Part shown: positions 16,423 through 62,701 of the stretch, one piece after another
How the letters are laid out: each line of letters opens with the position of its first letter
Numbering within the stretch: position 1 is the stretch's first letter
Source: Candidatus Tayloriibacteriota bacterium
Lineage (GTDB): Bacteria > Patescibacteriota > Minisyncoccia > Phycocordibacterales > PALSA-1337
Assembly (NCBI GenBank): GCA_943350765.1
Contig: CALRAJ010000004.1
Span: 19,309-83,308 of the forward strand
DNA: 64,000 bases
Reading direction: 5' to 3'
Program-made: the position numbers and the translations under genes
Notes under the pieces: model-generated
Told to the model about the DNA's origin: nothing
Databases searched by the model: none
The model's input: only the letters and a program-made list of their open reading frames with translations

Positions 16423-16441
16423 GTATATTAAAAATTAAATT

Positions 16442-46483: not shown

Positions 46484-47305
46484 ATGATACCAGCCAAAAA
46501 GTCATTGGGTCAAAACTTTCTCCACTCTATGGGTGCGGTCAATGCTATGGTAGAAGCATCTAGTCTAAACGAAAGCGACACTGTTCTTGAAATAGGTCCG
46601 GGTAAGGGAGTTTTGACGGACTTTCTTCTAAAAAAAGTTCGGCAGGTGGTAGCCGTGGAAAAGGATGACCGCCTGATACCACATCTCACCGAACGCTTTG
46701 AGAAAGAAGTCGTATCTGGTAAATTAAAAATAATTCACGCAGACATTCTTGAGATTTCGCCAAAAGACCTCGGTCTTTTGGCGAAATCCTACAAGCTTGT
46801 TGCCAATATCCCTTATTACATCACGGGGGAGCTAATCCAAAAGTTTCTCGAGACCGACACCCAGCCAATACTCATGACTTTAATGCTTCAAAAAGAGGTT
46901 GCTAGACGAATAGTGGCAAAGGATGGCAAAGAAAGCATCTTGTCGCTCTCAGTAAAATCCTACGGCGTCCCTAAATATATTCAAACCGTTAGTGCTGGAT
47001 GTTTTATACCCAAACCCTCAGTTGACTCAGCTATTTTGCTGGTAGATAATATTTCTGACACTTTTTTTAAATACGCCAACTCCAAAGAAGATGGGGGATC
47101 GACAACAAATCAACAAAAATTCTTTTTTTCACTCATAAAATCTGGTTTTGCTCACAAAAGGAAAAAACTCATCAGAAATCTTGAAACTATTACCCAAAAG
47201 ACCACATTAGAAAATGCTTTTTCAAAGCTCGATCTCACTATCAACACCCGGGCAGAAGATCTCTCGCTAGAACAGTGGAAAACTCTTGCACATTTACTAA
47301 AATAA
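46484..47305 (+). CDS. rsmA: 16S rRNA (adenine1518/1519-N6)-dimethyltransferase
   Basis: KKSLGQNFL...VLEIGPGKGVLT...NIPYYI matches KsgA. Confidence 0.9.
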   Translation: MIPAKKSLGQNFLHSMGAVNAMVEASSLNESDTVLEIGPGKGVLTDFLLKKVRQVVAVEKDDRLIPHLTERFEKEVVSGKLKIIHADILEISPKDLGLLAKSYKLVANIPYYITGELIQKFLETDTQPILMTLMLQKEVARRIVAKDGKESILSLSVKSYGVPKYIQTVSAGCFIPKPSVDSAILLVDNISDTFFKYANSKEDGGSTTNQQKFFFSLIKSGFAHKRKKLIRNLETITQKTTLENAFSKLDLTINTRAEDLSLEQWKTLAHLLK

Positions 47306-47385: not shown

Positions 47386-48378
47386 TTGAAACCAATTACC
47401 AAAAAAGGGGTAATGATAATCCTCACCACCGTAATCGTCAGTTTCGGTATATTTTTTGTTGCTACATGGTCACAAAAATCTTCTCAAAAAATCACCTACA
47501 CAGGGCTTGAGGCGGTAAAACCCGGAGAAGAGCTGACAGACACAACTTCAGAAATAGATTCGGATGGAGACAACCTAAAAGACTGGGAAGAAGTTTTGTG
47601 GCGTACCGACCCCAGAAAGGCCGATACGGATCTAGATGGCACATCAGATGGTCAAGAGGTAAAGGAGGGTAGAAATCCCACCGTAAAGGGACCCAAGGAC
47701 AAAATATCAGAAAATCCATTTACTCAAAATCAAGATGGTTTAAAAAATGCTCCACCACTCACAATCACCGATAAGTTTGCCAGAGATGTCTTTGACCAAT
47801 ACATGACAGCCAAGCAGGCAAACGGTGGGACACCTCTGACCACCGATGAGCAGAGGACTATTGTACTCAAAATGCTCGATGCCAGCGATGATGTCCTGGC
47901 AAAGATAGAGTACTCTCGGACTGATTTAAATATCGCCAAAAATAGCTCATCCGAAACTATCCGTGCGTACGGCAATGAGCTAGGCAGAATAATCCACACT
48001 TATTCTATTACCGCAAAAGACGAGGGTATTATACTTCGCGATAGCATCAAAGATAATGACCCCGAGCTTGTAAAACAGCTCGACCCTATTATCAAATCAT
48101 ACCAAAATCTTCTGAGTAATTTCCTCAAAGCACGAATCCCTGCAAACGCGGTGTTTATCCACCTTACGCTAATAAATAGTTTTAGTGATATAATTACGAC
48201 TGTCCAAGGGATGCGAAATATCTATACTGATCCGATAGCTACACTTCAGGGTGCAGGGCATTTCCCAGAGGCACGGGCAAGTGTTGTAAATGCTCTTGTC
48301 CGTGTTAAGGCATACTTCAAGGAAAATGGAGTAGTGTTTACCCAAGGGGAACAAGGGTACATTTTTAATTCAAACTGA
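47386..48378 (+). CDS. membrane-anchored protein with thrombospondin-type-3-like Ca-binding repeats
   Basis: N-terminal TM; DSDGDNLKDWEE and DTDLDGTSDGQE aspartate-rich repeats. Confidence 0.5.
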   Translation: MKPITKKGVMIILTTVIVSFGIFFVATWSQKSSQKITYTGLEAVKPGEELTDTTSEIDSDGDNLKDWEEVLWRTDPRKADTDLDGTSDGQEVKEGRNPTVKGPKDKISENPFTQNQDGLKNAPPLTITDKFARDVFDQYMTAKQANGGTPLTTDEQRTIVLKMLDASDDVLAKIEYSRTDLNIAKNSSSETIRAYGNELGRIIHTYSITAKDEGIILRDSIKDNDPELVKQLDPIIKSYQNLLSNFLKARIPANAVFIHLTLINSFSDIITTVQGMRNIYTDPIATLQGAGHFPEARASVVNALVRVKAYFKENGVVFTQGEQGYIFNSN

Positions 48379-48382
48379 TAGC

Positions 48383-50056
48383 ATGGTCAGAAACACTTTT
48401 TACAAAATTATAAGCGTAGCTCTTATATTTTCTTTTGTTTTTTCATCTACTTTTTTTATACAACCACCTAAAAAAGCAGAGGCTTTTGCCGCACTAACAT
48501 TTGACGGGGGAAACTTTATACAAAACACCCTGTCAGCCATTGCTGATACTGCAAGTAGTATTGCTGAATACGCTATCCAGTACAAGGAGTTTGTCCTCGA
48601 TGGTATTGTCAACTACATCGCCAAAGCCGTTCTCCGCCAGCTCACCACCAGTGTGGTGAACTGGATAAACAGCGGCTTTGACGGCAACCCATCCTTTGTT
48701 ACCGACCCAGCTGGCTTTTTTGCAAATATTGCCAACGAGGAGATTGGTAAGTTTATAGAAGGATCATCAGACCTCAACTTTCTCTGTAGCCCATTCCGTA
48801 TCGATGTTCGCATCGCTCTGGCATTCCAGTATTCGCCATTTAAAAAGAGGATTACTTGTACTTTTACCGATTCAGTCATAAACCTAAGTAATGCAGTGGG
48901 TGGTGCAACCATAAACGGCAAAAGTTTCACTAAGGGCAACTTTAGCAACGGAGGTTGGGATAATTGGATTTCACTCACCACCAATCCTCAAAACAATGTC
49001 TACGGCGCCACACTCATGGCACAGGTAGAGCTTTCGAGGCGTATCGCCGACAGACAAAAAAACAGCCAGAAAGAGCTCGATCACGGTCGAGGTTTCCTCT
49101 CATGGAAGAGCGATTGTACTGGCAAAAGCTCTGCCAATGCTGCTGAATATCGTACTCAGCTCGCAGAGGTTGGGGACAAAAATAGTGATAATTATGACGC
49201 CGAGGAAGCTACTCGCTACAAAAACATGTTACGGGCAGAGGAGAATACTGGCTGTAAGGTAAACACCCCTGGTTCTGTCATAGAGGGTCAGCTAGGCAAA
49301 GTCCTCGGCAGTAGTATAGACAGCCTCGGCCTAGCCGATGAGTTCAACGAAATCGTCAACGCCCTCTTTGCCCAGCTAGTAAATCAGGTAGTCGGTGGTG
49401 GGGGTGGTCTCCGTGGTGCGAGCCAGCCTACCTACGATGGCTCCTCATACTTAGACAAGCTCGGAGCAGCTCAAGACGCCGACACACTTAAAAATATCAG
49501 CTCTAGGGGTGCGGATGGGATAGATAAGTCGCTCGAGCTCATGGATAGATACAAGGCCGAAAAGCAAGCCTCGTTCACTGTAGTACTGATCGCTGAAAAC
49601 AAGCTTGTCCAGCTAGAAATGTGCTATACCCGCAAAGTCTCGACCCCCCAGACACCACCACTCAGTACCTATCAGGTAGACGAGGCAAACCGTCTTGCGA
49701 GCGAAGCTCGTGCAAGTATAGAGACCAATATAGCCTCAATAAAAAACCAGCTAAGCAATGATATCACTGCAGCAAACACAATTATCAATAAACTAGAGGT
49801 ACTCAAGTCTCGCATCGCCAACACCACATCACTCGATGACACCCTAAAGGCGACTTCAGAGTATGAAGCGTTACTCACGAGCAAGGGTCCAGATGCTATA
49901 AACGACGAGATCGATGTGTCAGTAGCTACAGTACAAAAAGAGGATATCTCTGCTAAAATGAAGGTGTTAAATACCGAGACAGATCGCAAGATCGGTATCT
50001 GCGAATCTGGTCAAATAGATGTAGGGAACACTGGCCAGCAAGGCGATCGAACATGA
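48383..50056 (+). CDS. secreted hypothetical protein of the T4SS-like cluster
   Basis: Signal/TM N-terminus; no assignable family; translationally coupled to the next gene (4-bp overlap). Confidence 0.5.
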   Translation: MVRNTFYKIISVALIFSFVFSSTFFIQPPKKAEAFAALTFDGGNFIQNTLSAIADTASSIAEYAIQYKEFVLDGIVNYIAKAVLRQLTTSVVNWINSGFDGNPSFVTDPAGFFANIANEEIGKFIEGSSDLNFLCSPFRIDVRIALAFQYSPFKKRITCTFTDSVINLSNAVGGATINGKSFTKGNFSNGGWDNWISLTTNPQNNVYGATLMAQVELSRRIADRQKNSQKELDHGRGFLSWKSDCTGKSSANAAEYRTQLAEVGDKNSDNYDAEEATRYKNMLRAEENTGCKVNTPGSVIEGQLGKVLGSSIDSLGLADEFNEIVNALFAQLVNQVVGGGGGLRGASQPTYDGSSYLDKLGAAQDADTLKNISSRGADGIDKSLELMDRYKAEKQASFTVVLIAENKLVQLEMCYTRKVSTPQTPPLSTYQVDEANRLASEARASIETNIASIKNQLSNDITAANTIINKLEVLKSRIANTTSLDDTLKATSEYEALLTSKGPDAINDEIDVSVATVQKEDISAKMKVLNTETDRKIGICESGQIDVGNTGQQGDRT

Positions 50057-52248
50057 AAAAATATCTACCTCACATTTTCATATTAGCACTCATCCTCGGC
50101 TGGGCTGGGACTTTTGGGGTGGGGGTGGTGCATGCAGGTTCACCACTTGAAGCTGGTTTAGACTATATTGCAGCACAAACAGGAAACATGATACTCACCG
50201 CAATGTCCTCACTAGTCTATGTCTCTGGACTTCTTTTGGATTTATCTCTGCAGTGGACATTAAACATGGCGGCCTTGGTAAAAGGTATACCCGCTATTGA
50301 GCTCGGCTGGAAGGTTTTCCGCGACCTCAGCACCATGTTCTTTATTTTTATCCTTCTCTACACCGCTATCAGCACTATTTTAGGAAAAGGTAGTGTTGAA
50401 GATGCAAAAAAGGTGGTAGTAAGTATTGTAGTAGCAGGACTTCTCATAAACTTTAGCTTGTTCTTTACCAAAATAGTCATTGATACCTCAAATGTTATTT
50501 CTCTTGGGTTTTATAAGGCCTTAGTACCTGATGGTGCAAGTAGAAAAGATGGTCTTTCTGCAATTTTTATGCAGAGCCTCTATCTCCAAACTGTCTATGA
50601 TGCACAAGGAATAGGGACAGCATCTGTTTCAAATTCAAATCTTTCTGGCTCTGGACTAGTAGCTGGTGCAAGTTGGACGAAATTATTTATCAACACCCTT
50701 ATGGGGTCATTGGTGATGCTGGTCGCCTCCATCGTATTTTTAGCGGGAGCATTTTTCTTTACTGTCCGTATTGTAATGCTTTTACTACTTATGGTTACTT
50801 CTCCTATAGCCTTTGCAGGACAAGCCCTCTCTGGGAAAGCCGAGAAGCTAGCCGAAAAGTGGAAAGATGAGCTAATAAACCAATGTCTTTTTATGCCAGC
50901 CTACCTAGCCATTACCTATGTAGGAATAAAAATTGTCGCCTCTCAAGCCTTTCAGGACGCCGTTAACCCTGCCAAGGCGAGTTTCTCTACGGTTGCCGTA
51001 GGGAATGTTGGTGTTATATTTAACTACCTCATCGTTATCGTATTCCTGATGGCTGCCCTGATACTAGCAAAACAGTTTGGGGTGATGGGAGCTGAAACTG
51101 TCAATGGCTGGGCTGAGGGGGCACTCAAAGCGGTACCAAACCTTACTGCGAGAAAAACGCTGGGTGGAGCAGGACACTGGGCAGAAAGAAAGCTTGAAAA
51201 TACAGTCATCGGGAACAGTGGTGTCGGCAGGTCACTTCGAAGTATCAGTACTGGTGCATTAGCAAATCAAAAATTCCTCGGAGACAAGTCCTACACGGAT
51301 GATGTAAAAGAAGGTAAGGAAATCAAAGCAAAAAGAAATCAGATCAATGATAATGCAACCATACGGGCTGGTGCTAGCGCTAGAGCTGCTGTTGCAAGTA
51401 GAGGTGTAGGAGCTACTGTTACAAATGAAGAGCGGGCACAAATTGATGCTGGTGAAATAGCACTCCAGAGAATGTCGTCTTCTGATATTGTTACACAAAC
51501 CCCTCAGATGCTGACGGAAAACGCAAAGAATTTAAATGAGGCTCAAGTTAAAGCAATCATGAAGAGTGATAAATTTACAGATGAAAATAAAGAGGAAATG
51601 CTCAAAGCCCGATTTGCACCAGTCGACGAAGCACTTGGGGTTCTTCATGAGGTTCTTGATAGAAGACCACCCGCTTCACCCACTGAAATAGATGCTGCAA
51701 AAGCTAAGCTTGGTGACGCAATTAGTGGTCTTTCCGATACTGACATAGAAAACCTTGGTTATGAACGCTTAAAAGACCCTGTTCTTATTGATGCACTCCC
51801 TTACTCGAAAATAAAAATTGCTACAGATAAGAAAACTGAAGGTTATAGTACTGATCAGAAAAAATTCTTCAAGGAAAGGAAGTTTAAACCTTTTACAGAC
51901 GCACTCGCCGCAATTCCTCCCAATCCAGTTGCTATTGAGAAAGAACTTGGAGCTCTCAGACTCAGTTCGGATGAGGTTGCTGAACTCGGCAAAAAAACCC
52001 TAGTTAAGTTAGCAGAAAATAAATGCTTGCCAACATTAGCACTTCCAAAGATAGCTGAAAAAATGACAAGTCAGGGAGAGCGTGATGAGATTATAGATGC
52101 CATAAAAGCTGCGCACGGAGGAAACCTTGCAGGCTTCCTAAACGATCCCAACAGGGCAGAGCTTCCTGACGCAACAGTTGCAACGCTTTCAAAAAAGGAC
52201 AAGGCTATTTACAGCTTCTTTATAGGTCCAATCGGCAGAAGTTTTTAA
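50053..52248 (+). CDS. VirB6/TrbL-like polytopic membrane protein of the T4SS-like cluster
   Basis: Signal peptide, at least six TM helices in the first 400 aa, then a hydrophilic C-terminal domain; architecture of the TrbL/VirB6 family. Confidence 0.55.
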   Translation: MKKYLPHIFILALILGWAGTFGVGVVHAGSPLEAGLDYIAAQTGNMILTAMSSLVYVSGLLLDLSLQWTLNMAALVKGIPAIELGWKVFRDLSTMFFIFILLYTAISTILGKGSVEDAKKVVVSIVVAGLLINFSLFFTKIVIDTSNVISLGFYKALVPDGASRKDGLSAIFMQSLYLQTVYDAQGIGTASVSNSNLSGSGLVAGASWTKLFINTLMGSLVMLVASIVFLAGAFFFTVRIVMLLLLMVTSPIAFAGQALSGKAEKLAEKWKDELINQCLFMPAYLAITYVGIKIVASQAFQDAVNPAKASFSTVAVGNVGVIFNYLIVIVFLMAALILAKQFGVMGAETVNGWAEGALKAVPNLTARKTLGGAGHWAERKLENTVIGNSGVGRSLRSISTGALANQKFLGDKSYTDDVKEGKEIKAKRNQINDNATIRAGASARAAVASRGVGATVTNEERAQIDAGEIALQRMSSSDIVTQTPQMLTENAKNLNEAQVKAIMKSDKFTDENKEEMLKARFAPVDEALGVLHEVLDRRPPASPTEIDAAKAKLGDAISGLSDTDIENLGYERLKDPVLIDALPYSKIKIATDKKTEGYSTDQKKFFKERKFKPFTDALAAIPPNPVAIEKELGALRLSSDEVAELGKKTLVKLAENKCLPTLALPKIAEKMTSQGERDEIIDAIKAAHGGNLAGFLNDPNRAELPDATVATLSKKDKAIYSFFIGPIGRSF

Positions 52249-52259
52249 TAAATTAAAGT

Positions 52260-53096
52260 ATGTACACAAAAGAACAAAAATTAGACGCGTATCGCAAACT
52301 CCCTGAGGAAATAAAAGCTGTCATTTCTGCTGAAGATGTGACTGATAAGATTACCGCGGTAGGAAACAAGCACAACCTCCTCATCGACAAACAAGGAATG
52401 CTTGTCGACGAAATCGGTCTCGTCATGTTCGGGCTCACTCATCCAGACAAGTTTGTAGACAGTCTGAAAAATCGTCTTGGGATATCACATGACGATGCCG
52501 AGGCTATCGCCACTGATGTAAACAATGAAATCTTGCTCGAAATCCGCGAAGAATTGAAAAAGATTAGTGCAAAAAATGCCGAGACAGAAAAAACCTCCAA
52601 TCTCGCTCACGATAGCCTAGACCCTGTCGAGACGGACGAGCATCACGCCACCCTAAAGAGGGAAGACATCCTGAGAGATATTGAGGATCCCGCTCCAACA
52701 CAGAATCCAACCCTAACTAGAACCACTCTTCCTTTAGCAAGGACCGTCATTGCAAAAGATGCCGAGGCTATTCAGCCTGCCGTAGCCAAAACCTCCCCAC
52801 CTCCATCAAACCTCCCTGTTGCCTATAACGACAACGACCTACCCACCGTTATCCCTCAAATGGATCATTCCTACCCGACACCAGCAAAAAAAGAAGTAGC
52901 TCCCGATAGTCCAGCAACCACTTTAGTCAGAACAGTCCCACTCACACAGACTGTCCTTGCAAAGGAAACCACTCCAAACATCGTTTCCGCCAAACTCAGT
53001 GGGGTAGTCGTTACCACGACCACAAGGATCCCTGAAAAGCCGTCTGCTACAAAAACCCCCTACAAAACAGACCCCTATCGAGAGGGGATAAATTAA
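52260..53096 (+). CDS. hypothetical protein with an internal duplicated TLxRTxPLxxTVxAK motif
   Basis: ORF; repeats TLTRTTLPLARTVIAKD and TLVRTVPLTQTVLAKE. Confidence 0.45.
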   Translation: MYTKEQKLDAYRKLPEEIKAVISAEDVTDKITAVGNKHNLLIDKQGMLVDEIGLVMFGLTHPDKFVDSLKNRLGISHDDAEAIATDVNNEILLEIREELKKISAKNAETEKTSNLAHDSLDPVETDEHHATLKREDILRDIEDPAPTQNPTLTRTTLPLARTVIAKDAEAIQPAVAKTSPPPSNLPVAYNDNDLPTVIPQMDHSYPTPAKKEVAPDSPATTLVRTVPLTQTVLAKETTPNIVSAKLSGVVVTTTTRIPEKPSATKTPYKTDPYREGIN

Positions 53097-53197
53097 CAGA
53101 CAAAATAACCCCGAAGCCGAGACTCTGATTTGACTTTTTTAAACATTCTGCTAATATGTATGTATTCAGACGAAAAGGGATCCAAACGGCTAACTAC

Positions 53198-53731
53198 CTA
53201 AGGAGCCCTTTTCTTTTTTAGCTCTATCTTTGCTCTTATATTTTCTAGATAATCAAAGTATCTAGACCCAATCTCTTTATACAAAGATGATGCGAACTTT
53301 TTATTCGGAAATAAAACCTTCTCAAACCTATTTTCTTCTATCAAAAAATCAACTACAAGTTTGTAATCTCCGTCCCCAGAAACCAAAACAATTTTTGTAA
53401 AATCTTCTTTTTTATACATCTTTTTCATAATATGAAAAATAATATCTGAATCGACATTTCCTTTTTTCTTTCCCATCATCGCTGGATTGTGTTCTCGGAA
53501 TATGAGAACAAAACCAGCACTTTGTATTTCTTCGTATAAATCTTGATTTTCTTCTTGAACATAACCTAGAAAATAGTAGGCTTTACCCACACTGTATTTT
53601 TGCTCAAGATACACACGAAATCTTGTGAGGTCAATTCTCCAAGGGTCGGCTTCTCGCTTAGCAGTACCCATATACAGATTCTGTCCATCTACAAACGCAA
53701 GGTTATTTGTGTGCTTAGTATTCGTGTTCAT
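53198..53731 (-). CDS. NYN-domain predicted RNase (second paralogue-type), embedded in the T4SS-like cluster
   Basis: AFVDGQNLY...IVLVSGDGDY NYN motifs. Confidence 0.65.
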   Translation of the reverse strand: MNTNTKHTNNLAFVDGQNLYMGTAKREADPWRIDLTRFRVYLEQKYSVGKAYYFLGYVQEENQDLYEEIQSAGFVLIFREHNPAMMGKKKGNVDSDIIFHIMKKMYKKEDFTKIVLVSGDGDYKLVVDFLIEENRFEKVLFPNKKFASSLYKEIGSRYFDYLENIRAKIELKKKRAP

Positions 53732-53903
53732 AGTGTGTTTTTGATTTTATCTTAACATAATTAGCATTATAAACACCATTAGATACTTATCCCCAAATAA
53801 CCTCTAAGGGTCATTATTTCACATATAGCAAATATCCTTGATTTTAGTATAATCAAGTAAAGAAAAACTGTATCAAATTATAAGATTTTTATTCACCGCC
53901 ATT

Positions 53904-54332
53904 ATGCGTTTCCAAGTACCACAATTTATCGAAATAGAAGACAAAATAATCGGTCAATTTACCTTTAAGCAGTTTGTCTACATGGGTGGTGGTCTCGGAC
54001 TTTCTTTTGTTGTCTACAATTTTCTAAATATCTACATCGCCCTGATTCTTATTGCTCCGATACTCGCCTTTGCTGGTGCTCTCGCATTTTACAAGCCATA
54101 CAACCCCAGCCAAATACCTTTTTCAGCTCTGGTAGAGTCCGCTGTCAGGTACATAAGCAACGAAAAGCTCTATATCTGGAAGAAAAAAGACCGTCTAGTA
54201 ACACCAAGTGGTACCGGCGAGCTTGTGGACACAGCGATGCTTAGTGTACCAAAGCTTTCGGATAGCAAGCTCAAAGACCTTACATGGAGCCTCGACATAA
54301 ACAACAGTCTCTATTCAGACAAAAGACATTAA
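53904..54332 (+). CDS. PrgI-family (VirB3-like) small membrane protein
   Basis: MRFQVPQFIEIEDKIIGQFTFKQFVYM... followed by two TM helices: the canonical PrgI N-terminus. Confidence 0.65.
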   Translation: MRFQVPQFIEIEDKIIGQFTFKQFVYMGGGLGLSFVVYNFLNIYIALILIAPILAFAGALAFYKPYNPSQIPFSALVESAVRYISNEKLYIWKKKDRLVTPSGTGELVDTAMLSVPKLSDSKLKDLTWSLDINNSLYSDKRH

Positions 54333-54381
54333 ACAACACCTATATTTCTGCTCGAGAGCAGGGCGTGATATACTTAAAACC

Positions 54382-55029
54382 ATGGCGACACTCAGCTCAA
54401 AAACAACTCAAGATTTTGTACCCATAAAAGAGGTAAAGAATGGCATCGTTATTCTCAAAGACGGTGGTATGCGAGGTATACTCATGGCTTCATCTCTAAA
54501 CTTTGCTTTAAAATCTACAGACGAGCAAAACTCCATCATCTACCAATTCCAAAACTTTTTGAACTCTCTCGACTTTTCTGTGCAAATATTTATCCAATCA
54601 AAGCGCCTGGATATTCGCCCATACATAGCGCTCCTAGAAAACAGATACAAGGAACAACCGGGGGACCTCATGAAAATCCAGACCCGCGAGTACATAGAGT
54701 TTATCAAAAACTTTACCGACAACTCCAGTATCATGACAAAAAGCTTTTTTATCGTCGTTCCTTACTCGCCAGCAATTCTACAAACAAAAGATAGTATTGT
54801 GGGCAAGCTTCTCGGCAAAAAATCTTCTACCGAGGTCGATGTAAATAAGCAAAAAATAGAGGATTTTGAAGAACACCGTAGTCAGCTCGAGCAGAGACTG
54901 AGCGTGGTAGAGCAAGGTCTCGTGAGATCTGGGGTACGAGTAGTACAGCTGGGCACCGAGGAGATAGTCGAGCTGTATTATCGCATATTCAATCCTGGAG
55001 ATATGGAAAAGCCGATACAGCTTACATAA
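54382..55029 (+). CDS. VirB4-like protein, N-terminal domain (separate ORF)
   Basis: Sits directly upstream of the ATPase ORF with a 28-bp gap and a frame change; size and position fit the VirB4 N-domain. Confidence 0.5.
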   Translation: MATLSSKTTQDFVPIKEVKNGIVILKDGGMRGILMASSLNFALKSTDEQNSIIYQFQNFLNSLDFSVQIFIQSKRLDIRPYIALLENRYKEQPGDLMKIQTREYIEFIKNFTDNSSIMTKSFFIVVPYSPAILQTKDSIVGKLLGKKSSTEVDVNKQKIEDFEEHRSQLEQRLSVVEQGLVRSGVRVVQLGTEEIVELYYRIFNPGDMEKPIQLT

Positions 55030-55057
55030 TCACCGAGAACTAAGCTATACTTAACAC

Positions 55058-56866
55058 ATGGGAATATTCTCAAACTTATTTGGACCAAAAAAAGAAGTGC
55101 CGATCGCATCTATTTTGCCTCAGCAGATATATAATGCTGGCGTACTTGAGCTAAAGGATATCATTGCTCCATCGGCACTAAAAGTAAGCCCTAAAGAGCT
55201 CAATCTTGGTGAGAAGATCGCCCGCACCTTTTTCGTCATTTCTTATCCTCGATTTCTTTCTGATAGCTGGTTTGCACCTATTATAAACCTCGACAAAGTT
55301 TTCAACATTTCTATTTTTATTCACCCTGTCGATACCGCAAAAGCCCTCCGCACATTCCAGACCAAAGTAGCCGAGGTGCAGAGTCAGATCAATGTTCGAG
55401 AAAAAAAGGGTCTAGTGCGTGACCCAATGCTCGATACTGCCTATCGTGACCTCGAGCAACTCCGCGACAGCCTCCAGCAAGCTCAAGAAAAACTTTTTGA
55501 TGTGGGTGTTTACATTACTATCTATGGCGATAGTGCAGGGGAGCTAGACAAAACCGAGTCTGAGATCAAATCCGTACTCGAGTCAAAGCTTGTATACCTA
55601 AAACCCGCCCTTTTCCAGCAGGAGCAAGGCTACAAGAGCATTTTACCTATTGCTACCGACGAGCTCAATGTACACTCAAAACTCAACTCCTCACCACTCT
55701 CCAGTCTCTTTCCGTTTGTTTCATTTGACCTCACTTCAGACAAAGGTATTCTGTATGGTATCAATCGTCACAACTCTAGCCTTGTGCTTTTTGACCGTTT
55801 TCTACTCGAAAACTACAACTCAGTAACCTTTGCAAAAGCTGGTTCTGGTAAATCATATGCCGTAAAGCTCGAAATTCTCCGCACCCTGATGTTTGAGACT
55901 GAGGTTATCGTTATTGATCCAGAAAAGGAGTACGAATACATGTCCGAGGCAGTCGGCGGACGATACTTCAATATTTCGCTCACATCAGAGCATCATATCA
56001 ACCCTTTTGATCTTCCTATCCCTAGAGAAGATGAGTCTGCGTCAGATGTATTGCGTTCAAATATTGTAAACCTTGTCGGTCTATTTCGTATTATGATGGG
56101 AGGGCTTACTCAGGAAGAAGACGCTATCATCGACCGAGCTATCACGGAAACATATGCACTCAAAGACATCACCGCTGAGTCTGATTTTCGCAATGTCGAG
56201 CCACCACTTCTTTCAGATTTTGAGCTGGTACTGGCTGGTATGGAGGGAGGGGAGTCACTGGTACAAAAGCTTAGTAAATATACAAAAGGAACTTGGTCTG
56301 GCTTTATCAACAGACCGTCAAATGTAGACATCAACAAAAAGTTTGTAGTCTTTTCGCTCCGTGATATGGAAGATGAGCTCAAACCTGTCGCTATGTATAT
56401 TGTTACTCATTATATCTGGAATGCTATTCGCAAAAACCTCAAAAAACGCCTGTTGGTCATCGACGAGGCGTGGTGGATGATGAAATCCGACGACACAGCA
56501 TCATTCCTCCTCGGTCTTGCCAAAAGAGGACGAAAATACTATCTCGGTCTTGCTACCATCACTCAAGATGTTGATGACTTTCTCAAATCACCTTATGGTC
56601 TGCCAATTATTACTAACTCTTCCATTCAAATACTACTAAAACAGTCTCCGTCATCTATAGATATTCTTCAGAAGACCTTCAATCTCACCGACGAGGAAAA
56701 ATACCTTTTGCTCGAGTCGGATATTGGAGAGGGTATATTCTTTGTTGGTCTCAAGCATGTAGCTATTAAGGTAATCGCCTCATATACCGAGGACCAAATC
56801 ATTACGACGAATCCCGAGCAGGTTTTGGCGATCAAGCGAGCAAAAGACGAGCTCGCAGGGCAGTAA
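55058..56866 (+). CDS. VirB4/TraC/PrgJ-family conjugation ATPase (ATPase domain)
   Basis: Walker A FAKAGSGKSYAVK, Walker B LLVIDEAWWMM, C-terminal GLATITQDVDDF. Confidence 0.8.
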   Translation: MGIFSNLFGPKKEVPIASILPQQIYNAGVLELKDIIAPSALKVSPKELNLGEKIARTFFVISYPRFLSDSWFAPIINLDKVFNISIFIHPVDTAKALRTFQTKVAEVQSQINVREKKGLVRDPMLDTAYRDLEQLRDSLQQAQEKLFDVGVYITIYGDSAGELDKTESEIKSVLESKLVYLKPALFQQEQGYKSILPIATDELNVHSKLNSSPLSSLFPFVSFDLTSDKGILYGINRHNSSLVLFDRFLLENYNSVTFAKAGSGKSYAVKLEILRTLMFETEVIVIDPEKEYEYMSEAVGGRYFNISLTSEHHINPFDLPIPREDESASDVLRSNIVNLVGLFRIMMGGLTQEEDAIIDRAITETYALKDITAESDFRNVEPPLLSDFELVLAGMEGGESLVQKLSKYTKGTWSGFINRPSNVDINKKFVVFSLRDMEDELKPVAMYIVTHYIWNAIRKNLKKRLLVIDEAWWMMKSDDTASFLLGLAKRGRKYYLGLATITQDVDDFLKSPYGLPIITNSSIQILLKQSPSSIDILQKTFNLTDEEKYLLLESDIGEGIFFVGLKHVAIKVIASYTEDQIITTNPEQVLAIKRAKDELAGQ

Positions 56867-56952
56867 GTAACATATTTTTTACCTTTTTAGGCGATTAATA
56901 TGTGTCAGAATTGTAAAATCTTTTCTGTTATCTTTTTTAATCTTAATCAACC

Positions 56953-57465
56953 ATGGCAAGTCGAATAAGTAAAACCGAGTGGAAGATATTAGTGGGTTTA
57001 GCTGTTATTGTAGACGGGATACAGATAATCCTCGACTTTTTTGGTATTGGTATTATAGTTAATCGCTTTATTGATGTAGCTGTTGGTATCGCCCTACCGC
57101 TATATCTCCAAACACAAGGGGTAAGTATGGCAAATCCAAAAAGATTACTGGGTATGCTCGGAGCATTTGTCGGTGAAATGATACCCGTAGTAGATAGTCT
57201 TCCCCTGTGGACAGCTGATGTACTTTTTACATGGAGTACTGTCAAAGCTGAGGAGCTGATAGCCAAAGCACCTGGTGGCAAAATGCTGGCAAAAAAGATT
57301 CAAAACTCTCAAAATACTCCGGGACCATCTGACGAAGGCGAGGTTGATGAAGGTTCAAATGATACAGACCTAGACAATATCGATTTAAATGCTGAAGTAG
57401 GAGACTCAAATAATTCTCCCCAACGAGACCGTCCTGTCTTGCAAGACATCCGCCCACGGCTATGA
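56953..57465 (+). CDS. small integral membrane protein with an acidic C-terminal tail
   Basis: Three hydrophobic segments; DEGEVDEGSNDTDLDNIDL tail. Confidence 0.45.
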   Translation: MASRISKTEWKILVGLAVIVDGIQIILDFFGIGIIVNRFIDVAVGIALPLYLQTQGVSMANPKRLLGMLGAFVGEMIPVVDSLPLWTADVLFTWSTVKAEELIAKAPGGKMLAKKIQNSQNTPGPSDEGEVDEGSNDTDLDNIDLNAEVGDSNNSPQRDRPVLQDIRPRL

Positions 57466-57478
57466 TAAAATATAAGTA

Positions 57479-58516
57479 ATGAAATTACGCTCTGTTTATT
57501 TTAATCTTTTCTGTTTAGTAGTCTTTAGTGTTTTTTCTCTGGCTTCTTTTTCACATACTCACGCACAAATCACAAACGATATACCCAGTGCCATAGAGGT
57601 AGACATCGCCCCTCAAAATCCTGGTCCAAATACCGAGACCAGCATCACTATCAAAAACTACTCCACCGATCTCGACCGGGCCACCATCACTTGGTCACTA
57701 AACAACAAACAGCTACAAAAAGCTGTCGGCTCTACTCATTTTGAATTTCGCACAGGTCCTTTGGGAACCCCCTCGGTCGTTACTGTTGTTATTAACACCG
57801 TGAGTGGTAGGACTATTCGCAAAAACATCACCCTCCGGCCATCTGAGGTAGACCTCGTGTGGGAGACTAGTGGCTATACACCACCTTTTTATCGTGGAAA
57901 ATCTATTTATGTCAATCAAGGCTTTGTAACAGTCGTGGCAATCCCAAATATGGTCGGGATAAATGGCAAAAAACTAAACTCTAAAAATCTAGTCTACAAA
58001 TGGAGCGTGGATGGGGAGATAAAGGGCAGTGACTCTGGATATGGCAAGGATAGTTTCGTATTCCAAGGGGGTATTGTGCCACAGCCTACTACTATATCCG
58101 TCGAGGCCTCGTCTCTGACCGATGGTACCCGTGCCTCGGCTAGTATTGAGCTCGATCCAGAGAGACCCGAACTTTTGCTATACCAAGACGATCCTCTCTA
58201 CGGCATATTCTACAACAGAGCTCTACTCGAAACATTTCGCCTTACAGATGATGAGGTCACTTTTCTAGCTTTACCATATTTCTTTTCTGGTAAAACACCG
58301 ACCGTTTCAAGCCTCAGCTATGTATGGAGTATGAACGGTACCGATCTCGGTGACACCGCAAAGAAAAATAGGGTTACCTTGAGAAGGAGCGGCCAGACCG
58401 AGTCGGGGAGTGCTACTATTAGTATCGGTCTAGAAAACTCCCGAGACATCCTACAGGGCGCTAGGCACGATCTCTCCATATCTTTTGAAGCCAAGGGCAA
58501 GGAGGTAAAATTTTAA
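57479..58516 (+). CDS. secreted hypothetical protein (signal peptide)
   Basis: MKLRSVYFNLFCLVVFSVFSLASFSHTHAQ signal peptide; beta-rich. Confidence 0.5.
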   Translation: MKLRSVYFNLFCLVVFSVFSLASFSHTHAQITNDIPSAIEVDIAPQNPGPNTETSITIKNYSTDLDRATITWSLNNKQLQKAVGSTHFEFRTGPLGTPSVVTVVINTVSGRTIRKNITLRPSEVDLVWETSGYTPPFYRGKSIYVNQGFVTVVAIPNMVGINGKKLNSKNLVYKWSVDGEIKGSDSGYGKDSFVFQGGIVPQPTTISVEASSLTDGTRASASIELDPERPELLLYQDDPLYGIFYNRALLETFRLTDDEVTFLALPYFFSGKTPTVSSLSYVWSMNGTDLGDTAKKNRVTLRRSGQTESGSATISIGLENSRDILQGARHDLSISFEAKGKEVKF

Positions 58517-58522
58517 CATTTT

Positions 58523-59770
58523 ATGAAAAATACTTTTACAAAAAGATTATTAGCATCAACACTACTTACAGCCATCGTGATGCTTTTTGTTGGTACACTT
58601 GTAGCTATTCCAGTCAATATATCTGCCCAAGCAGGCACCCAAACTACCGTAAAGGAAACTCCTTGTGTTTCCACCAAAGATGCATACTGTCTTCTCGAGC
58701 CACTCTCAATAGGTGGAAAAGTTGAGACAAAAGTAGCCATAGCCGACTACCTGAAACAACTATTCAAAATAGGTATCGGTCTTGCTGGGCTTTTTGCAGT
58801 ATTTATGATTGTGTTAGGTGGACTTGAGTATATGAGTACTGATGCGGTTACCAAAAAGGAATCTGGCAAAGAAAAGATACAAAATGCTCTCATCGGTCTC
58901 GCTCTCGCCCTCGGCTCATACCTCATACTAAACACCATAAATCCCCAGCTACTTGAGTTTAGTGGGGGACTAGAGCCAGTGGGTACTTTAGCGACAAGAG
59001 AGAGGTATGATGACGGTCTTCAAGCTCGTCTCAATAATATTGAAAATGGCAGACAGCGCGAAAGGGCACTGAGAGCCGATGGTCAAGCAGAAGCAGCAGA
59101 TGACCTCCATCGAGAAGTTCAGGTTGTGGATATTATTGATAGAACGATACTCAACCTACAAAAAAAAGAGGGGGACAAAGCAAACACAAATTATATCCAG
59201 TCTGCAAAAGCTAGTATCGGTCAGCAATACGACAAAGCTATAGTAAAAATACAAACAGCTATTGAAAAAGACAGGTCTGACCGAGCCACAAAAAAAGCAG
59301 GTATAACGACCCAGATAAAAGACCTCGAGTCTTCGGGAGTGCTTACAGCAGACCAAACTCAAAAATTAGCAGACCTTAAAAATGAATTACTGGGATTGGA
59401 AAACTATGTAAACGAAAGCGCTCGATTGACTGAAAAAGTAAGTACTTTGCGAAAGCAAAAAACAAATTCATTGGATGTAATGGAAAAATATTTTATTCAT
59501 GAAGTAGAAACTATTAAATTTACAAGCAGTACCCAAACCATATTTCGTGCATTAAGAACCTACTCAGACACCACCGCAGCCAAAGTTGCAAAAGACCTTG
59601 TGGTTAAAATTTCTAGTGAATCAGAGCAACTAATAAAAACATCTAAGAATGACCAGCCAGAATTAGCTATAAAAATAAAAAATGATAGTGATCAGAGAAT
59701 ACAAAGAATAACAAGTTGGCTCGCACAAGAATTCAAAAAAAACCTTAACGGCACCGAAACAACAAACTAA
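58523..59770 (+). CDS. VirB2/TrbC-like pilin with a long coiled-coil C-terminal extension
   Basis: Signal peptide, then two adjacent TM helices (IGIGLAGLFAVFMIVLGGL; ALIGLALALGSYLILNTI) typical of T4SS pilins, then ~250 aa predicted coiled coil. Confidence 0.5.
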   Translation: MKNTFTKRLLASTLLTAIVMLFVGTLVAIPVNISAQAGTQTTVKETPCVSTKDAYCLLEPLSIGGKVETKVAIADYLKQLFKIGIGLAGLFAVFMIVLGGLEYMSTDAVTKKESGKEKIQNALIGLALALGSYLILNTINPQLLEFSGGLEPVGTLATRERYDDGLQARLNNIENGRQRERALRADGQAEAADDLHREVQVVDIIDRTILNLQKKEGDKANTNYIQSAKASIGQQYDKAIVKIQTAIEKDRSDRATKKAGITTQIKDLESSGVLTADQTQKLADLKNELLGLENYVNESARLTEKVSTLRKQKTNSLDVMEKYFIHEVETIKFTSSTQTIFRALRTYSDTTAAKVAKDLVVKISSESEQLIKTSKNDQPELAIKIKNDSDQRIQRITSWLAQEFKKNLNGTETTN

Positions 59771-59772
59771 CC

Positions 59773-61062
59773 ATGTCCAAAAAAACCCTCATTACTCTCA
59801 TACTCCTCCTTCTTCTCATCACTGCAGGGATTTTTGGCTACTTTTTTTATTCGATCAGGCCCACGCCCCTCGTGATAGACACCAACAAAGACAAAAACAC
59901 CCATTTTCCTTTTGGTAGCGGTAACACTTACCCCACAAATACTGGCAGAGATACTGCCACCAGTACAGGTGCTACAAGTACTTCTACCAGCACACGGAAC
60001 ACCTACACTCGCACACCCGCCCTACCAGTACTCCGCCACCTTTCTACAGTACCTACCGCAGGGGCAGGGGCTTATGACAGCTCTCGGGGCACTCAGATAC
60101 GCTACATCGAGCGAGGCACTGGCTACATCTACCAAGCCAGTAACCTAAACCTTGACCAGATCAAGCTTTCAAATACCCCGATTATAAAAATCTACGAAGC
60201 GCTCTGGACAAGTAAAAATAATGCCTTAATTATTCGCCGTCTCAAGGGGGATACTGACACCATCGACAGCTTCTACAGCACCCTCAACACAACCCCAACC
60301 ATAAAAAACGCCTCGAGTACGACCTCTTTATCTGACTCACTCATTTCCAGCGTATCTTCAGACTACCTAGGTGCAAACATTAGCAGTGCAGTGTTGTCGC
60401 CAAAAAAGGACTCTCTTTTTTACCTAATTCCTGATGGTAGTGGGGGGGTATCTGGTATTATTGCCAAAGTAGATGGAACTAAAAAAGTACTCGTCTTTAG
60501 CTCACCCCTCAAGGGTTGGGTCACACAATGGCCTGCAGATAACACCATCGCGCTCACTAGCAAATCTTCCTCAAAGAGTGCTGGCTTCTTATACTTTGTA
60601 TCTAGTCTGACGGGTTCTTCGACCAAAGTACTCGGAGGAATAAACGGCTTTACAACCCTGACTAGTACGGATACAAATACCGTCCTTTATTCAAAAACCA
60701 ACAACGACAGCTTCACGCTCAACTCATTTAATGTAAAAAATGGCAACAAAGAACAAATAAGCCTCACCACCTTGCCTGAAAAGTGTGTTTGGAGCGCAAA
60801 AGAAAAGAATAGTGCTTATTGTGCGGTGCCAAAAAGTATTCCAAGTGGTAGCTACCCAGAAAGCTGGTATCAAGGGAAAGTATTTTTCAACGACGAAATC
60901 TGGAAAATCGACACTTTTATAGGAACACTCGAGCATATTGCTGACCTTAATAGTCTGTCTGGGCAAGAGATTGACGCGACAAACCTAAGTCTAAATGGTA
61001 AAGAAGACCTGCTACTTTTTACAAACAAACAAGACCTCACCTTATGGAGCTTGGATATATAA
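59773..61062 (+). CDS. membrane-anchored Ser/Thr-rich beta-rich protein
   Basis: N-terminal TM, low-complexity TST linker, repeated hydrophobic beta-like segments. Confidence 0.45.
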   Translation: MSKKTLITLILLLLLITAGIFGYFFYSIRPTPLVIDTNKDKNTHFPFGSGNTYPTNTGRDTATSTGATSTSTSTRNTYTRTPALPVLRHLSTVPTAGAGAYDSSRGTQIRYIERGTGYIYQASNLNLDQIKLSNTPIIKIYEALWTSKNNALIIRRLKGDTDTIDSFYSTLNTTPTIKNASSTTSLSDSLISSVSSDYLGANISSAVLSPKKDSLFYLIPDGSGGVSGIIAKVDGTKKVLVFSSPLKGWVTQWPADNTIALTSKSSSKSAGFLYFVSSLTGSSTKVLGGINGFTTLTSTDTNTVLYSKTNNDSFTLNSFNVKNGNKEQISLTTLPEKCVWSAKEKNSAYCAVPKSIPSGSYPESWYQGKVFFNDEIWKIDTFIGTLEHIADLNSLSGQEIDATNLSLNGKEDLLLFTNKQDLTLWSLDI

Positions 61063-61070
61063 GATAGTGA

Positions 61071-61393: not shown

Positions 61394-61402
61394 TAGTGAA
61401 AA

Positions 61403-62140: not shown

Positions 62141-62199
62141 ATATATGTATACTATCCTACTTGACGATGATTATCAATAAATCCTTTTTAATTTATTTA

Positions 62200-62338: not shown

Positions 62339-62345
62339 TTGCTAC

Positions 62346-62687: not shown

Positions 62688-62701
62688 GTATTTTGGGTTG
62701 A

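What the first reader, a model, noticed from the sequence alone, without database searches (positions are those of the whole stretch)
47386..61062. A 14-kb type IV secretion / conjugation-like cluster with VirB6-, PrgI-, split VirB4- and VirB2-like genes plus uncharacterised secreted proteins
Twelve co-directional genes are tightly packed, with overlaps or gaps under 30 bp. The recognisable ones are:
- a VirB4-family ATPase with Walker A and B motifs (55058-56866);
- a PrgI-type small membrane protein with the canonical MRFQVPQFIE N-terminus (53904-54332);
- a VirB6/TrbL-like polytopic protein (50053-52248);
- a two-helix pilin-like protein with a long coiled-coil extension (58523-59770).
The remaining genes encode Ca-binding-repeat, secreted, Ser/Thr-rich and acidic-tail proteins that I cannot place in any family, and one NYN nuclease sits on the opposite strand in the middle. 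I see no relaxase, coupling protein (VirD4) or origin of transfer in the window. The machine may therefore serve contact-dependent or epibiont-type functions rather than plasmid transfer, and several components may be novel. Taken together with the type IV pilus operon at 11.4-18.2 kb, this is the most system-like undescribed content in the window.
Basis: partly seen in the sequence, partly recalled or inferred. Interest (0 to 1): 0.8.

Follow-up and report, generated by a model that had tools for sequence, protein, structure and literature searches.

The report
Chromosomal Patescibacteria type IV secretion locus
This is the chromosomal, origin-adjacent type IV secretion gene cluster that ultra-small Patescibacteria (here a Paceibacteria/Parcubacteria genome) carry and probably use to interact with host cells rather than to transfer plasmids; the system was described in 2023-2025, so this copy is a new member of a known kind.

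Summary
The cluster is real and is a type IV secretion system (T4SS). Profile searches confirm:
- a VirB4 ATPase (55058-56866);
- a separate TrsD-like gene matching the VirB4 N-terminus (54382-55029);
- a PrgI/VirB3 protein;
- a VirB2-type pilin;
- a weak VirB6/TrbL match.

No relaxase, coupling protein or nearby tRNA was found in the window.

In 37 of 39 related Paceibacteria genomes that span the interval, the same 11 genes lie in the same order between ksgA and yidC. dnaA starts about 2 kb downstream. VirB4 is about 82% identical across these genomes, against about 50% for the housekeeping flanks. The envelope proteins are only 27-41% identical. The NYN gene is a strain-specific insertion.

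This matches the Patescibacteria T4SS already published (Wang 2023; Quinonero-Coronel 2025), so the system is not undescribed.

Four results go beyond the HMM-level annotation:
- The protein upstream of VirB6 belongs to a family whose N-terminus resembles TrbJ/VirB5.
- One conserved secreted protein is three Ig-like domains.
- One cytoplasmic protein ends in a near-invariant DPYRE motif.
- A four-helix membrane protein has an invariant Asp.

Function is inferred, not shown.

The parts
47386..48378 (+). g1: membrane-anchored protein. It has one N-terminal hydrophobic segment, sub-threshold TSP3-type acidic repeats, and a conserved C-terminal domain of about 200 aa with unknown fold.
   Evidence: ORF. 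TSP3_bac 0.0036, below cutoff. Hydropathy. Positional orthologs in 47 loci, median 27% identity. No PDB sequence match.
48383..50056 (+). g2: secreted all-helical protein, candidate VirB5/TrbJ-like component. Its stop overlaps the VirB6 start by 4 nt.
   Evidence: AF2 pLDDT 72.7, with a confident long helical bundle at residues 356-542. N-termini of family members match TrbJ models (17 of 28, best 3.3e-6); the window copy scores only 0.073. Alignment to R751 TrbJ N-terminus. Specificity control, 31 of 149 against 0 of 270. About 10% of homologs hit DUF4141. Fold searches are non-specific.
50053..52248 (+). g3: extended VirB6/TrbL-like polytopic membrane protein. It has a signal segment, about 6 TM segments, and a hydrophilic C-terminal half of about 390 aa.
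   Evidence: TrbL 7.6e-4, below cutoff. 8 of 39 orthologs hit TrbL, best 6e-5, and it is the only recurrent family. Hydropathy.
52260..53096 (+). g4: cytoplasmic protein of unknown family. It has an N-terminal helical domain of about 100 aa, a variable Pro/Thr-rich linker, and a near-invariant C-terminal DPYRE(P) motif.
   Evidence: No TM segment. Alignment. Motif found in 63 loci and only at this gene position. No Pfam or PDB match.
53198..53731 (-). NYN-domain protein: a strain-specific insertion between g4 and PrgI, not part of the system.
   Evidence: NYN 1.6e-13. No hit at this position in the 80 related loci; the one hit, in L072, lies elsewhere.
53904..54332 (+). g6: PrgI-family (VirB3-like) small membrane protein.
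   Evidence: PF12666 PrgI 9.1e-9, 36.2 bits against a cutoff of 27. Orthologs in 79 loci, median 50% identity.
54382..55029 (+). g7: TrsD-like protein, equivalent to the N-terminal domain of VirB4 encoded as a separate gene.
   Evidence: VirB4_plasma 2.5e-11 (profile positions 100-241), TrsD NF041427 2.5e-7, CD1110 VirB4 positions 2-118. Precomputed PF26593 TraC-like.
55058..56866 (+). g8: VirB4 ATPase, covering the central and C-terminal P-loop part.
   Evidence: conju_CD1110 1.3e-114, 384 bits against a cutoff of 325, profile positions 185-733 of 752. P-loop_TraG 7.5e-26. Walker A and B. 79-89% identical in 80 species-level genomes.
56953..57465 (+). g9: small membrane protein of unknown family, about 4 hydrophobic segments. 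It has an invariant Asp in the first segment and a conserved E..IP....LP.WT motif. The tail is variable and acidic in this copy.
   Evidence: Alignment of 36 positional orthologs. Hydropathy. No Pfam or NCBIfam hit. Not a paralog of PrgI or the pilin.
57479..58516 (+). g10: secreted protein made of three tandem Ig/FN3-like beta-sandwich domains.
58523..59770 (+). g11: VirB2-type T4SS pilin (signal peptide plus two TM helices, residues 76-136) with a coiled-coil C-terminal extension of about 275 aa. The extension varies in length among orthologs.
   Evidence: PF18895 8.4e-6. 42 of 45 orthologs hit PF18895, best 2.6e-9. Hydropathy. Ortholog lengths 106-628 aa.
59773..61062 (+). g12: membrane-anchored protein with a Ser/Thr-rich linker and a beta-rich C-terminal domain with conserved Cys residues. 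It may be a beta-propeller.
   Evidence: Alignment with invariant C338 and C350. Only faint TolB and PD40 similarity, E 0.05-0.13 and 0.008 in 1 of 44 members, not significant. Hydropathy.
46484..47305 (+). ksgA/rsmA: conserved upstream boundary of the locus.
   Evidence: RrnaAD 6e-51. Same position in 44 loci.
61403..62140 (-). yidC: conserved downstream boundary of the locus.
   Evidence: 60KD_IMP 2.3e-45. Same position and strand in 55 loci.
63147..64000 (+). dnaA, cut by the window end. It places the T4SS locus about 2 kb from the replication initiator gene.
   Evidence: L081 is 100% identical to window 47479-64000 and carries DnaA and DnaN domains downstream.

Best explanation
The 11 co-directional genes at 47386-61062 are the vertically inherited chromosomal T4SS of the Patescibacteria clade, in its Paceibacteria (Parcubacteria) layout.

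Shown here:
- The cytoplasmic motor is a VirB4 ATPase whose N-terminal domain is encoded separately (TrsD-like).
- A PrgI/VirB3 protein is present next to it, and a probable extended VirB6 lies upstream.
- A VirB2-type pilin is encoded in the same cluster.
- The whole gene set keeps a fixed order at a fixed chromosomal site between ksgA and yidC, next to dnaA.

Inferred:
- PrgI/VirB3 anchors the motor and the extended VirB6 forms the channel.
- VirB4 drives assembly of a pilus or tube from the pilin on a VirB6 platform. The secreted helical protein g2 may play the VirB5/TrbJ role as nucleator or tip.
- The other envelope proteins carry the structure through the wall and make contact with a host cell. 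These are the three-Ig-domain protein g10, the anchored proteins g1 and g12, and the four-helix protein g9.
- The machine does not conjugate DNA. It moves macromolecules or nutrients between the epibiont and its host, as proposed for the essential Saccharibacteria homolog.
- Direction and cargo are unknown.
For: - Component identities.
- No relaxase or coupling protein in 27 screened window ORFs: all those of 500 aa or more, plus ten more of 250-376 aa.
- No tRNA within 15 kb. The only recombinase is an Xer-like gene 10 kb away.
- G+C content is the same as the flanks.
- At least 579 relatives in species-representative genomes, all uncultured Patescibacteria-type MAGs in the top 80.
- Gene order is colinear in 37 of 39 loci that span ksgA to yidC.
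- VirB4 is 82% identical (median), TrsD 64% and PrgI 50%. The housekeeping genes KsgA, YidC and PcrA are 49-54% identical in the same genomes. The envelope proteins are 27-41% identical. This fits an indispensable motor with fast-evolving surface parts.
- dnaA lies about 2 kb downstream.
- The g2 N-terminal similarity to TrbJ is specific to that family.
- Literature: the Southlakia T4SS and its pilins are essential for epibiotic growth and lack a relaxase and coupling protein (PMC10633639). TrsD, PrgI, VirB6 and VirB2 lie near virB4, and KsgA, DnaA and DnaN are common neighbours, with Paceibacteria and Microgenomatia named for DnaA and DnaN (PMC12102498). Tubular structures at a parasite-host interface have been seen (bioRxiv 10.64898/2026.06.21.733656).
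Against: - No experiment bears on this organism or on any Paceibacteria T4SS; function is transferred from Saccharibacteria.
- The VirB6 assignment rests on sub-threshold matches.
- No VirB8-like or VirB1-like gene was identified inside the cluster.
- A coupling protein or relaxase could lie outside the 64-kb window. The 2025 survey found many T4CP homologs far from virB4.
- The VirB5 reading of g2 rests on about 40 N-terminal residues. It is weak in the window's own copy (E 0.073), is absent against Ti-type TrbJ, and is not discriminated by fold search.
- The 80 loci were chosen as the best VirB4 matches, which inflates the VirB4 identity somewhat relative to the flanks.
Confidence: 0.75

Rival explanations
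1. The cluster is the mating-pair-formation module of an integrated conjugative element, or a decayed remnant of one. It transfers DNA using a relaxase and coupling protein encoded elsewhere.
For: VirB4 is closest to conjugative VirB4 of monoderm bacteria (CD1110 family). The best plasmid-borne relatives are conjugative systems. T4CP homologs exist elsewhere in many Patescibacteria genomes (PMC12102498).
Against: The locus sits at the same chromosomal site, in the same order, in 37 of 39 genomes. There is no integrase, relaxase, tRNA or composition shift at its borders. VirB4 is more conserved than the housekeeping flanks, the opposite of what a decaying element would show. Relaxases are found in only 103 Patescibacteria genomes.
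Confidence: 0.05
2. The machine works inward. It would be a T4SS-type uptake system, like H. pylori ComB or the archaeal Ced system, importing host DNA, RNA or nucleotides into a cell that cannot make its own.
For: VirB4 shows weak similarity to CedB (3.1e-9). The window also encodes ComEC, RecJ, a ComM-like Mg-chelatase-family ATPase and type IV pilus genes. Patescibacteria lack nucleotide synthesis, and one cultured member feeds on host RNA and shows tubes at the host interface. Uptake through a pilus conduit has been proposed (PMC12857230).
Against: In Southlakia, comEC is dispensable while the T4SS is essential, so the T4SS does not act through ComEC. No ComB- or Ced-specific component was detected here. 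Direction of transport cannot be read from sequence. This rival overlaps the best explanation, which leaves direction open.
Confidence: 0.15
3. The system only builds an adhesive surface fibre and translocates nothing. The fibre would be a VirB2-type pilus decorated by the pilin's long extension, the Ig-domain protein and anchored adhesins.
For: There is a pilin with a variable extension that is probably exposed at the surface. A three-Ig-domain secreted protein resembles adhesion molecules. The envelope components diverge fast. No coupling protein is present in the window.
Against: Type IV pili already supply adhesion in these organisms (PMC12857230), and a T4P operon is present in the window. 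The extreme conservation of VirB4 and TrsD and the presence of a cytoplasmic partner with a conserved terminal motif (g4) suggest more than fibre assembly.
Confidence: 0.08

Closest known systems
Patescibacteria-clade T4SS (Saccharibacteria 'Southlakia epibionticum' SEML1_0006-0019; survey of Quinonero-Coronel et al. 2025)
   Same: - VirB4 related to MPF_FATA, with a separate TrsD-like gene.
- A PrgI-type VirB3, VirB6, and a VirB2-like pilin near virB4.
- No relaxase or coupling protein nearby.
- A chromosomal position near dnaA and ksgA.
   Different: - This Paceibacteria layout has a single pilin with a long C-terminal extension, not an array of 2-11 short pilins.
- No peptidase or lysozyme genes lie directly downstream of virB4.
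- Six conserved accessory genes (g1, g2, g4, g9, g10, g12) match no Pfam or NCBIfam model.
- A TrbJ/VirB5-like N-terminus in g2 is not reported in the papers I could search.
MPF_FATA conjugative T4SS of Gram-positive bacteria (pCF10 Prg/Pcf, pGO1 Trs, CTn2 of C. difficile)
   Same: - The best-scoring VirB4 model is the CD1110 (CTn2) family.
- PrgI and TrsD homologs are present.
- The envelope logic is monoderm: no VirB7, VirB9 or VirB10 detected.
   Different: - It has a VirB2-type pilin.
- It lacks a detectable VirB1-like hydrolase, VirB8-like protein, adhesin (PrgB), coupling protein and relaxase in the cluster.
- It is chromosomal, vertically inherited and next to the replication origin.
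P-type (MPF_T) T4SS such as IncP trb and Agrobacterium virB
   Same: - The pilin is VirB2/TrbC-like.
- A secreted helical protein with a TrbJ-like N-terminal motif sits directly upstream of the VirB6/TrbL-like gene, as in trbJ-trbK-trbL.
   Different: - No outer-membrane core (VirB7, VirB9, VirB10) and no VirB11.
- VirB4 belongs to a different clade.
- g2 is twice the length of TrbJ and matches it only over about 40 residues.

Membership tests
Type IV secretion system (VirB4-based) | VirB4-family ATPase with Walker A and B motifs | tested here: met
   conju_CD1110 1.3e-114, 384 bits against a cutoff of 325. AKAGSGKS at residue 259 and LLVIDE at residue 465.
Type IV secretion system (VirB4-based) | VirB3-like small membrane partner of VirB4 | tested here: met
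   PrgI PF12666 9.1e-9, above the gathering score.
Type IV secretion system (VirB4-based) | VirB6-like polytopic channel protein | tested here: inconclusive
   TrbL 7.6e-4, below the gathering score. 8 of 39 orthologs hit TrbL, best 6e-5, and it is the only recurrent family. The polytopic topology fits.
Conjugative T4SS | Relaxase and type IV coupling protein associated with the locus | tested here: not met
   None in 27 screened window ORFs: all those of 500 aa or more, plus ten more of 250-376 aa. The rest of the genome could not be examined.
Patescibacteria-clade T4SS | Separate TrsD-like gene next to virB4 | tested here: met
   54382-55029 matches VirB4 N-terminal regions and TrsD NF041427. 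It lies 28 nt upstream of virB4.
Patescibacteria-clade T4SS | VirB2-like pilin gene near virB4 in a monoderm-type system | tested here: met
   PF18895 in the window copy at 26.2 bits against 26.6 and in 42 of 45 positional orthologs.
Patescibacteria-clade T4SS | Chromosomal location near ksgA, dnaA and dnaN, without mobile-element markers | tested here: met
   ksgA lies directly upstream, yidC directly downstream, and dnaA starts at 63147. No tRNA or integrase at the borders.
Patescibacteria-clade T4SS | VirB4 falls in the monophyletic Patescibacteria clade, sister to MPF_FATA | not tested
   No tree was built. Indirect support: the top 80 of at least 579 relatives are all uncultured Patescibacteria-type MAGs at 79-89% identity, and the best curated model is an MPF_FATA family.
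MPF_FATA conjugative T4SS | VirB1-like cell-wall hydrolase and VirB8-like protein in the cluster; no pilin | tested here: not met
   No hydrolase or NTF2-like match among the 11 products. A pilin is present. An M23/LysM peptidase lies 3.5 kb upstream on the other strand.
VirB5/TrbJ minor pilin (for g2, 48383-50056) | Signal peptide followed by the N-terminal (I/L)PV.D..N..QN-type helix | tested here: inconclusive
   17 of 28 family N-termini hit TrbJ PRK13874, best 3.3e-6; the window copy scores 0.073. R751 TrbJ aligns at 16.2 bits. 31 of 149 g2 family members score at least 10 bits against 0 of 270 control proteins. No similarity to Ti-type TrbJ.
VirB5/TrbJ minor pilin (for g2, 48383-50056) | Full-length match to a VirB5, TrbJ or TraC model, or a specific fold match | tested here: not met
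VirB5/TrbJ minor pilin (for g2, 48383-50056) | Gene directly upstream of the VirB6/TrbL gene | tested here: met
   4-nt overlap with the VirB6-like gene. Same adjacency in 55 loci. Compare trbJ-trbK-trbL in pTiC58 and R751.

The most novel reading that the evidence does not exclude
The Paceibacteria locus encodes a hybrid machine. A monoderm-type motor (VirB4, TrsD, PrgI) is joined to the full pilus-building trio otherwise typical of diderm systems: a VirB2 pilin, a VirB5/TrbJ-like tip or nucleator (g2), and a VirB6 platform. A lineage-specific set of envelope and cytoplasmic proteins adds to it: the three-Ig protein, the anchored propeller-like protein, the four-helix Asp protein, and the DPYRE-tailed cytoplasmic adaptor. 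Together they would build a tube that reaches into host cells and carries host macromolecules to the epibiont.
Probability: 0.25. Interest if true: 0.7.

Novelty: new member of a known kind. Interest (0 to 1): 0.35.

Why it matters
Patescibacteria make up a large share of bacterial diversity and mostly cannot be grown. Their T4SS is one of the few systems shown to be essential for life on a host, and only in one Saccharibacteria strain.

This window gives a clean Paceibacteria example with a fixed 11-gene layout. It shows that six conserved genes in it are still unassigned. The observations below are concrete starting points for structural and genetic work on how these cells tap their hosts:
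- the TrbJ/VirB5-like N-terminus of g2;
- the Ig-domain protein g10;
- the DPYRE-tailed protein g4;
- a VirB4 that is more conserved than the housekeeping neighbours.

They do not change the current picture of the system.

Tried and rejected
- **g2 against Ti-type TrbJ.** hhalign probability was below 1%. The similarity is limited to IncP-type TrbJ N-termini.
- **g1, g4 and g9.** No Pfam, NCBIfam or PDB match.
- **Paralogy within the cluster** (for example g9 as a second VirB3 or pilin). Rejected by all-against-all hhalign.
- **NYN nuclease as a system component.** Rejected, because it is absent from relatives. No flanking repeats explain its insertion.
- **Promoter and terminator scans.** No excess over shuffled sequence.
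- **Accession look-ups.** RP4 and R751 under their GenBank accessions were not in the plasmid collection. The exact-sequence look-up of YidC failed.

Full report
**Observation.** Eleven lie on the + strand; the twelfth, the NYN gene, lies on the - strand. Spacings between the + strand genes are 4, -4, 11, 807 (this gap holds NYN), 49, 28, 86, 13, 6 and 2 nt. Packing is therefore tight, but not uniformly under 30 bp. G+C content (0.40-0.45) does not differ from the rest of the window.

**Recognisable components.**
- 55058-56866 matches the NCBIfam CD1110-family VirB4 model at 1.3e-114. The score is 384 bits against a curated cutoff of 325, over profile positions 185-733 of 752. It also matches Pfam P-loop_TraG at 7.5e-26. 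It has Walker A AKAGSGKS and Walker B LLVIDE.
- The missing N-terminal part of VirB4 is encoded by the preceding gene, 54382-55029. That gene matches positions 100-241 of a mycoplasma VirB4 model (2.5e-11), the TrsD model (2.5e-7) and positions 2-118 of the CD1110 model. The 'split VirB4' is real and corresponds to the TrsD arrangement.
- 53904-54332 is a PrgI-family (VirB3-like) protein, 9.1e-9 and above the gathering score.
- 58523-59770 carries a T4SS_pilin domain at residues 76-136, 0.4 bits below the gathering score. Of its positional orthologs, 42 of 45 match the same model, best 2.6e-9.
- 50053-52248 is polytopic. It matches TrbL/VirB6 only below threshold (7.6e-4). Eight of 39 orthologs do the same, and no other family recurs. 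I call it VirB6-like with moderate confidence.
- The NYN domain is confirmed.

**What is absent.** I screened 27 window ORFs against Pfam or NCBIfam: all those of 500 aa or more, plus ten more of 250-376 aa. None is a coupling protein or a relaxase. The screened ORFs outside the cluster are ComEC, RecJ, PilB, PilC, an LVIVD propeller, RNase Y, CCA-adding enzyme, a ComM-like Mg-chelatase-family ATPase, NusA, an M23/LysM peptidase, PGK, TIM, RNase H, an Xer-like recombinase, PcrA/UvrD, KsgA, YidC and others. The nearest tRNA is 15 kb away.

**Context and conservation.**
- A scan of one genome per species with the VirB4 protein found at least 579 relatives. The best 80 are 79-89% identical. All come from uncultured MAGs titled Parcubacteria, Paceibacterota, Taylorbacteria, Zambryskibacteria, Campbellbacteria, Nomurabacteria or Patescibacteria group. 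One bulk MAG project labels its genomes 'uncultured Candidatus Saccharibacteria'.
- tblastn of every window protein against these loci shows one conserved order: ksgA, g1, g2, VirB6, g4, PrgI, TrsD, VirB4, g9, g10, pilin, g12, then yidC on the opposite strand.
- Of 39 loci that span ksgA to yidC, 37 are colinear. The interval has a median length of 15.1 kb, against 15.7 kb in the window.
- The NYN gene is absent from this position in all 80 loci, so it is a strain-specific insertion.
- A contig 100% identical to window 47479-64000 continues into dnaA and dnaN. dnaA starts at window position 63147.
- Median identity to the window proteins is 82% for VirB4, 64% for TrsD and 50% for PrgI. It is 49-54% for the housekeeping genes KsgA, YidC and PcrA in the same genomes, and 27-41% for the envelope proteins. 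The loci were picked by VirB4 similarity, which biases this comparison somewhat. Even so, the motor clearly evolves more slowly than its housekeeping neighbours, while the exposed parts evolve fast.

**Unassigned genes.**
- *g2 (48383-50056).* The protein is secreted and all-helical, with a confident long helical bundle at residues 356-542.
  - About 10% of its homologs carry a marginal DUF4141 match at residues 20-60. DUF4141 proteins lie next to traJ in Bacteroides conjugative transposons. TraI of CTnDOT was called a VirB5 homolog by Guglielmini et al.; that this TraI is the DUF4141 protein is my inference from gene position.
  - Scanning 28 N-terminal fragments of the family against NCBIfam gave TrbJ models as the only recurrent hits: 17, 12 and 4 members for three TrbJ models, best 3.3e-6. 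One fragment hit VirB5. The window copy scored 0.073. I chose these 28 by eye, so that fraction is biased.
  - The R751 TrbJ N-terminus (AGIPVIDGTNLSQNIMTAIES...) aligns with the family consensus (AQlaVvDagNlvQntisA...) at 16.2 bits.
  - In an unselected control, that TrbJ segment scored at least 10 bits with 28 of 104 database homologs and 3 of 45 locus orthologs of g2. It did so with none of 270 other signal-peptide proteins from the same clusters. The result held when the signal peptide was removed.
  - Taken with the 4-nt overlap with the VirB6-like gene, which mirrors trbJ-trbK-trbL, g2 is a reasonable VirB5-like candidate but not a demonstrated member.
- *g4 (52260-53096).* It has no hydrophobic segment. 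It has a conserved N-terminal domain, a variable linker and a C-terminal DPYRE(P) motif. The motif is present in 63 loci and only at this gene position.
- *g9 (56953-57465).* It is a small membrane protein of about four hydrophobic segments, with an invariant Asp in the first segment and a conserved E..IP....LP.WT motif.
- *g1 and g12.* Both are N-terminally anchored. g1 has sub-threshold TSP3 repeats. g12 has a Ser/Thr-rich linker and a beta-rich domain with invariant cysteines, and only faint TolB/PD40 similarity.
- No two cluster proteins are paralogs.

**Comparison with the literature.**
- Wang et al. 2023 showed by Tn-seq that the T4SS genes and pilins of the Saccharibacterium Southlakia epibionticum are essential for epibiotic growth. 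That system lacks a recognisable relaxase and coupling protein.
- Quinonero-Coronel et al. 2025 surveyed Patescibacteria. They reported a monophyletic VirB4 clade related to MPF_FATA. TrsD, PrgI/VirB3, VirB6 and VirB2-like pilins lie near virB4, relaxases are rare, and KsgA, RnpA, RpmH, DnaA and DnaN are common neighbours; they name Paceibacteria and Microgenomatia for DnaA and DnaN.
- A 2025 review lists these systems as a new T4SS type that may build a pilus and act as a conduit.
- The window's cluster fits this description point by point, so the system is known.
- VirB5 or TrbJ is mentioned in these papers only for one imported MPF_T-type cluster. The g2 observation and the description of g4, g9 and g10 are, as far as the searchable literature shows, additions at the level of annotation.

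**Mechanism.**
- *Shown:* the identities of the motor, VirB3 and pilin; the absence of conjugation markers in the window; the fixed chromosomal location; and the conservation pattern.
- *Inferred:* VirB4 with TrsD and PrgI powers assembly of a VirB2-type fibre on a VirB6 platform. g2 possibly acts as VirB5. g1, g9, g10 and g12 form or decorate the wall-spanning part. g4 is a cytoplasmic partner whose terminal motif docks on the motor or marks it for export. The machine serves exchange with a host cell rather than conjugation.
- Direction and cargo remain open.

**Verdict.** The finding is real and correctly interpreted. It is an instance of a system already described, so novelty is 'new member of a known kind' and interest is moderate to low (0.35). 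The most novel reading not excluded is a hybrid pilus-building machine with a VirB5-like component and a lineage-specific accessory set (probability about 0.25).

Noticed in passing
window 53198-53731 (-): The NYN-domain gene sits in an 807-nt gap between g4 and PrgI, where relatives have about 30 nt. It is absent there in all 80 related loci, so it looks like a recent insertion. No flanking repeats were found.
   Followed up: partly
window 44267-46213 (-): The PcrA/UvrD helicase gene is on the - strand here. Its best matches in 35 related loci lie on the + strand, upstream of ksgA. This suggests a local inversion in this genome, or a paralog.
   Followed up: no
window 63147-64000 (+), L081 15669-18408: dnaA starts at 63147 and is cut by the window end; dnaN follows on the identical contig. 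Cumulative GC skew falls across the whole window; I did not test whether the replication origin lies just past the right edge.
   Followed up: partly
window 55058-56866 compared with 46484-47305 and 61403-62140: VirB4 is far more conserved among related genomes (median 82%) than the adjacent housekeeping genes KsgA (49%) and YidC (51%).
   Followed up: partly
window 52260-53096; 63 related loci: The cytoplasmic protein g4 ends in a near-invariant DPYRE(P) motif after a variable low-complexity linker. No other ORF in the window or the loci has this ending. Its function is unexplained.
   Followed up: partly
g9 positional orthologs in related loci (alignment A7), e.g. L015:11958-12431, L016:12014-12541, L020:11869-12360: Many orthologs of the small membrane protein g9 have tails with one or two G(V/I)RxP motifs, often ending in GGL. 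The window copy (56953-57465) instead has an acidic tail ending in DIRPRL.
   Followed up: no
window 42826-43911 (-): An M23 peptidase with LysM domains lies 3.5 kb upstream of the cluster, and at the same relative position in several relatives. It could be the cell-wall hydrolase (VirB1 analog) of the system, or an ordinary division hydrolase.
   Followed up: no
L045 5238-6266; L035 about 8484: Two relatives break colinearity. In L045 the three-Ig gene lies between g2 and VirB6. In L035 the PrgI match is on the opposite strand.
   Followed up: no
hit H1, NZ_CP081497.1 2186408-2188156: The best plasmid-collection match to this VirB4 is in a 2.8-Mb Streptomyces sp. BHT-5-2 replicon, with no feature listed under it: 35% identity over 95% of the protein, E 7e-93. 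It is much closer than any Firmicutes plasmid VirB4.
   Followed up: no
window 2159-3709, 5009-6811, 11398-18277, 41173-42795: The window also holds ComEC, RecJ, a type IV pilus operon (PilB, PilC and neighbours, next to an LVIVD beta-propeller protein) and a ComM-like Mg-chelatase-family ATPase. Together these are a competence and pilus toolkit alongside the T4SS.
   Followed up: partly
loci L001-L080 record titles: Many close relatives are titled 'uncultured Candidatus Saccharibacteria' (one bulk MAG project), while equally close ones are titled Parcubacteria, Paceibacterota or Taylorbacteria. The Saccharibacteria labels look like default names rather than true taxonomy.
   Followed up: no
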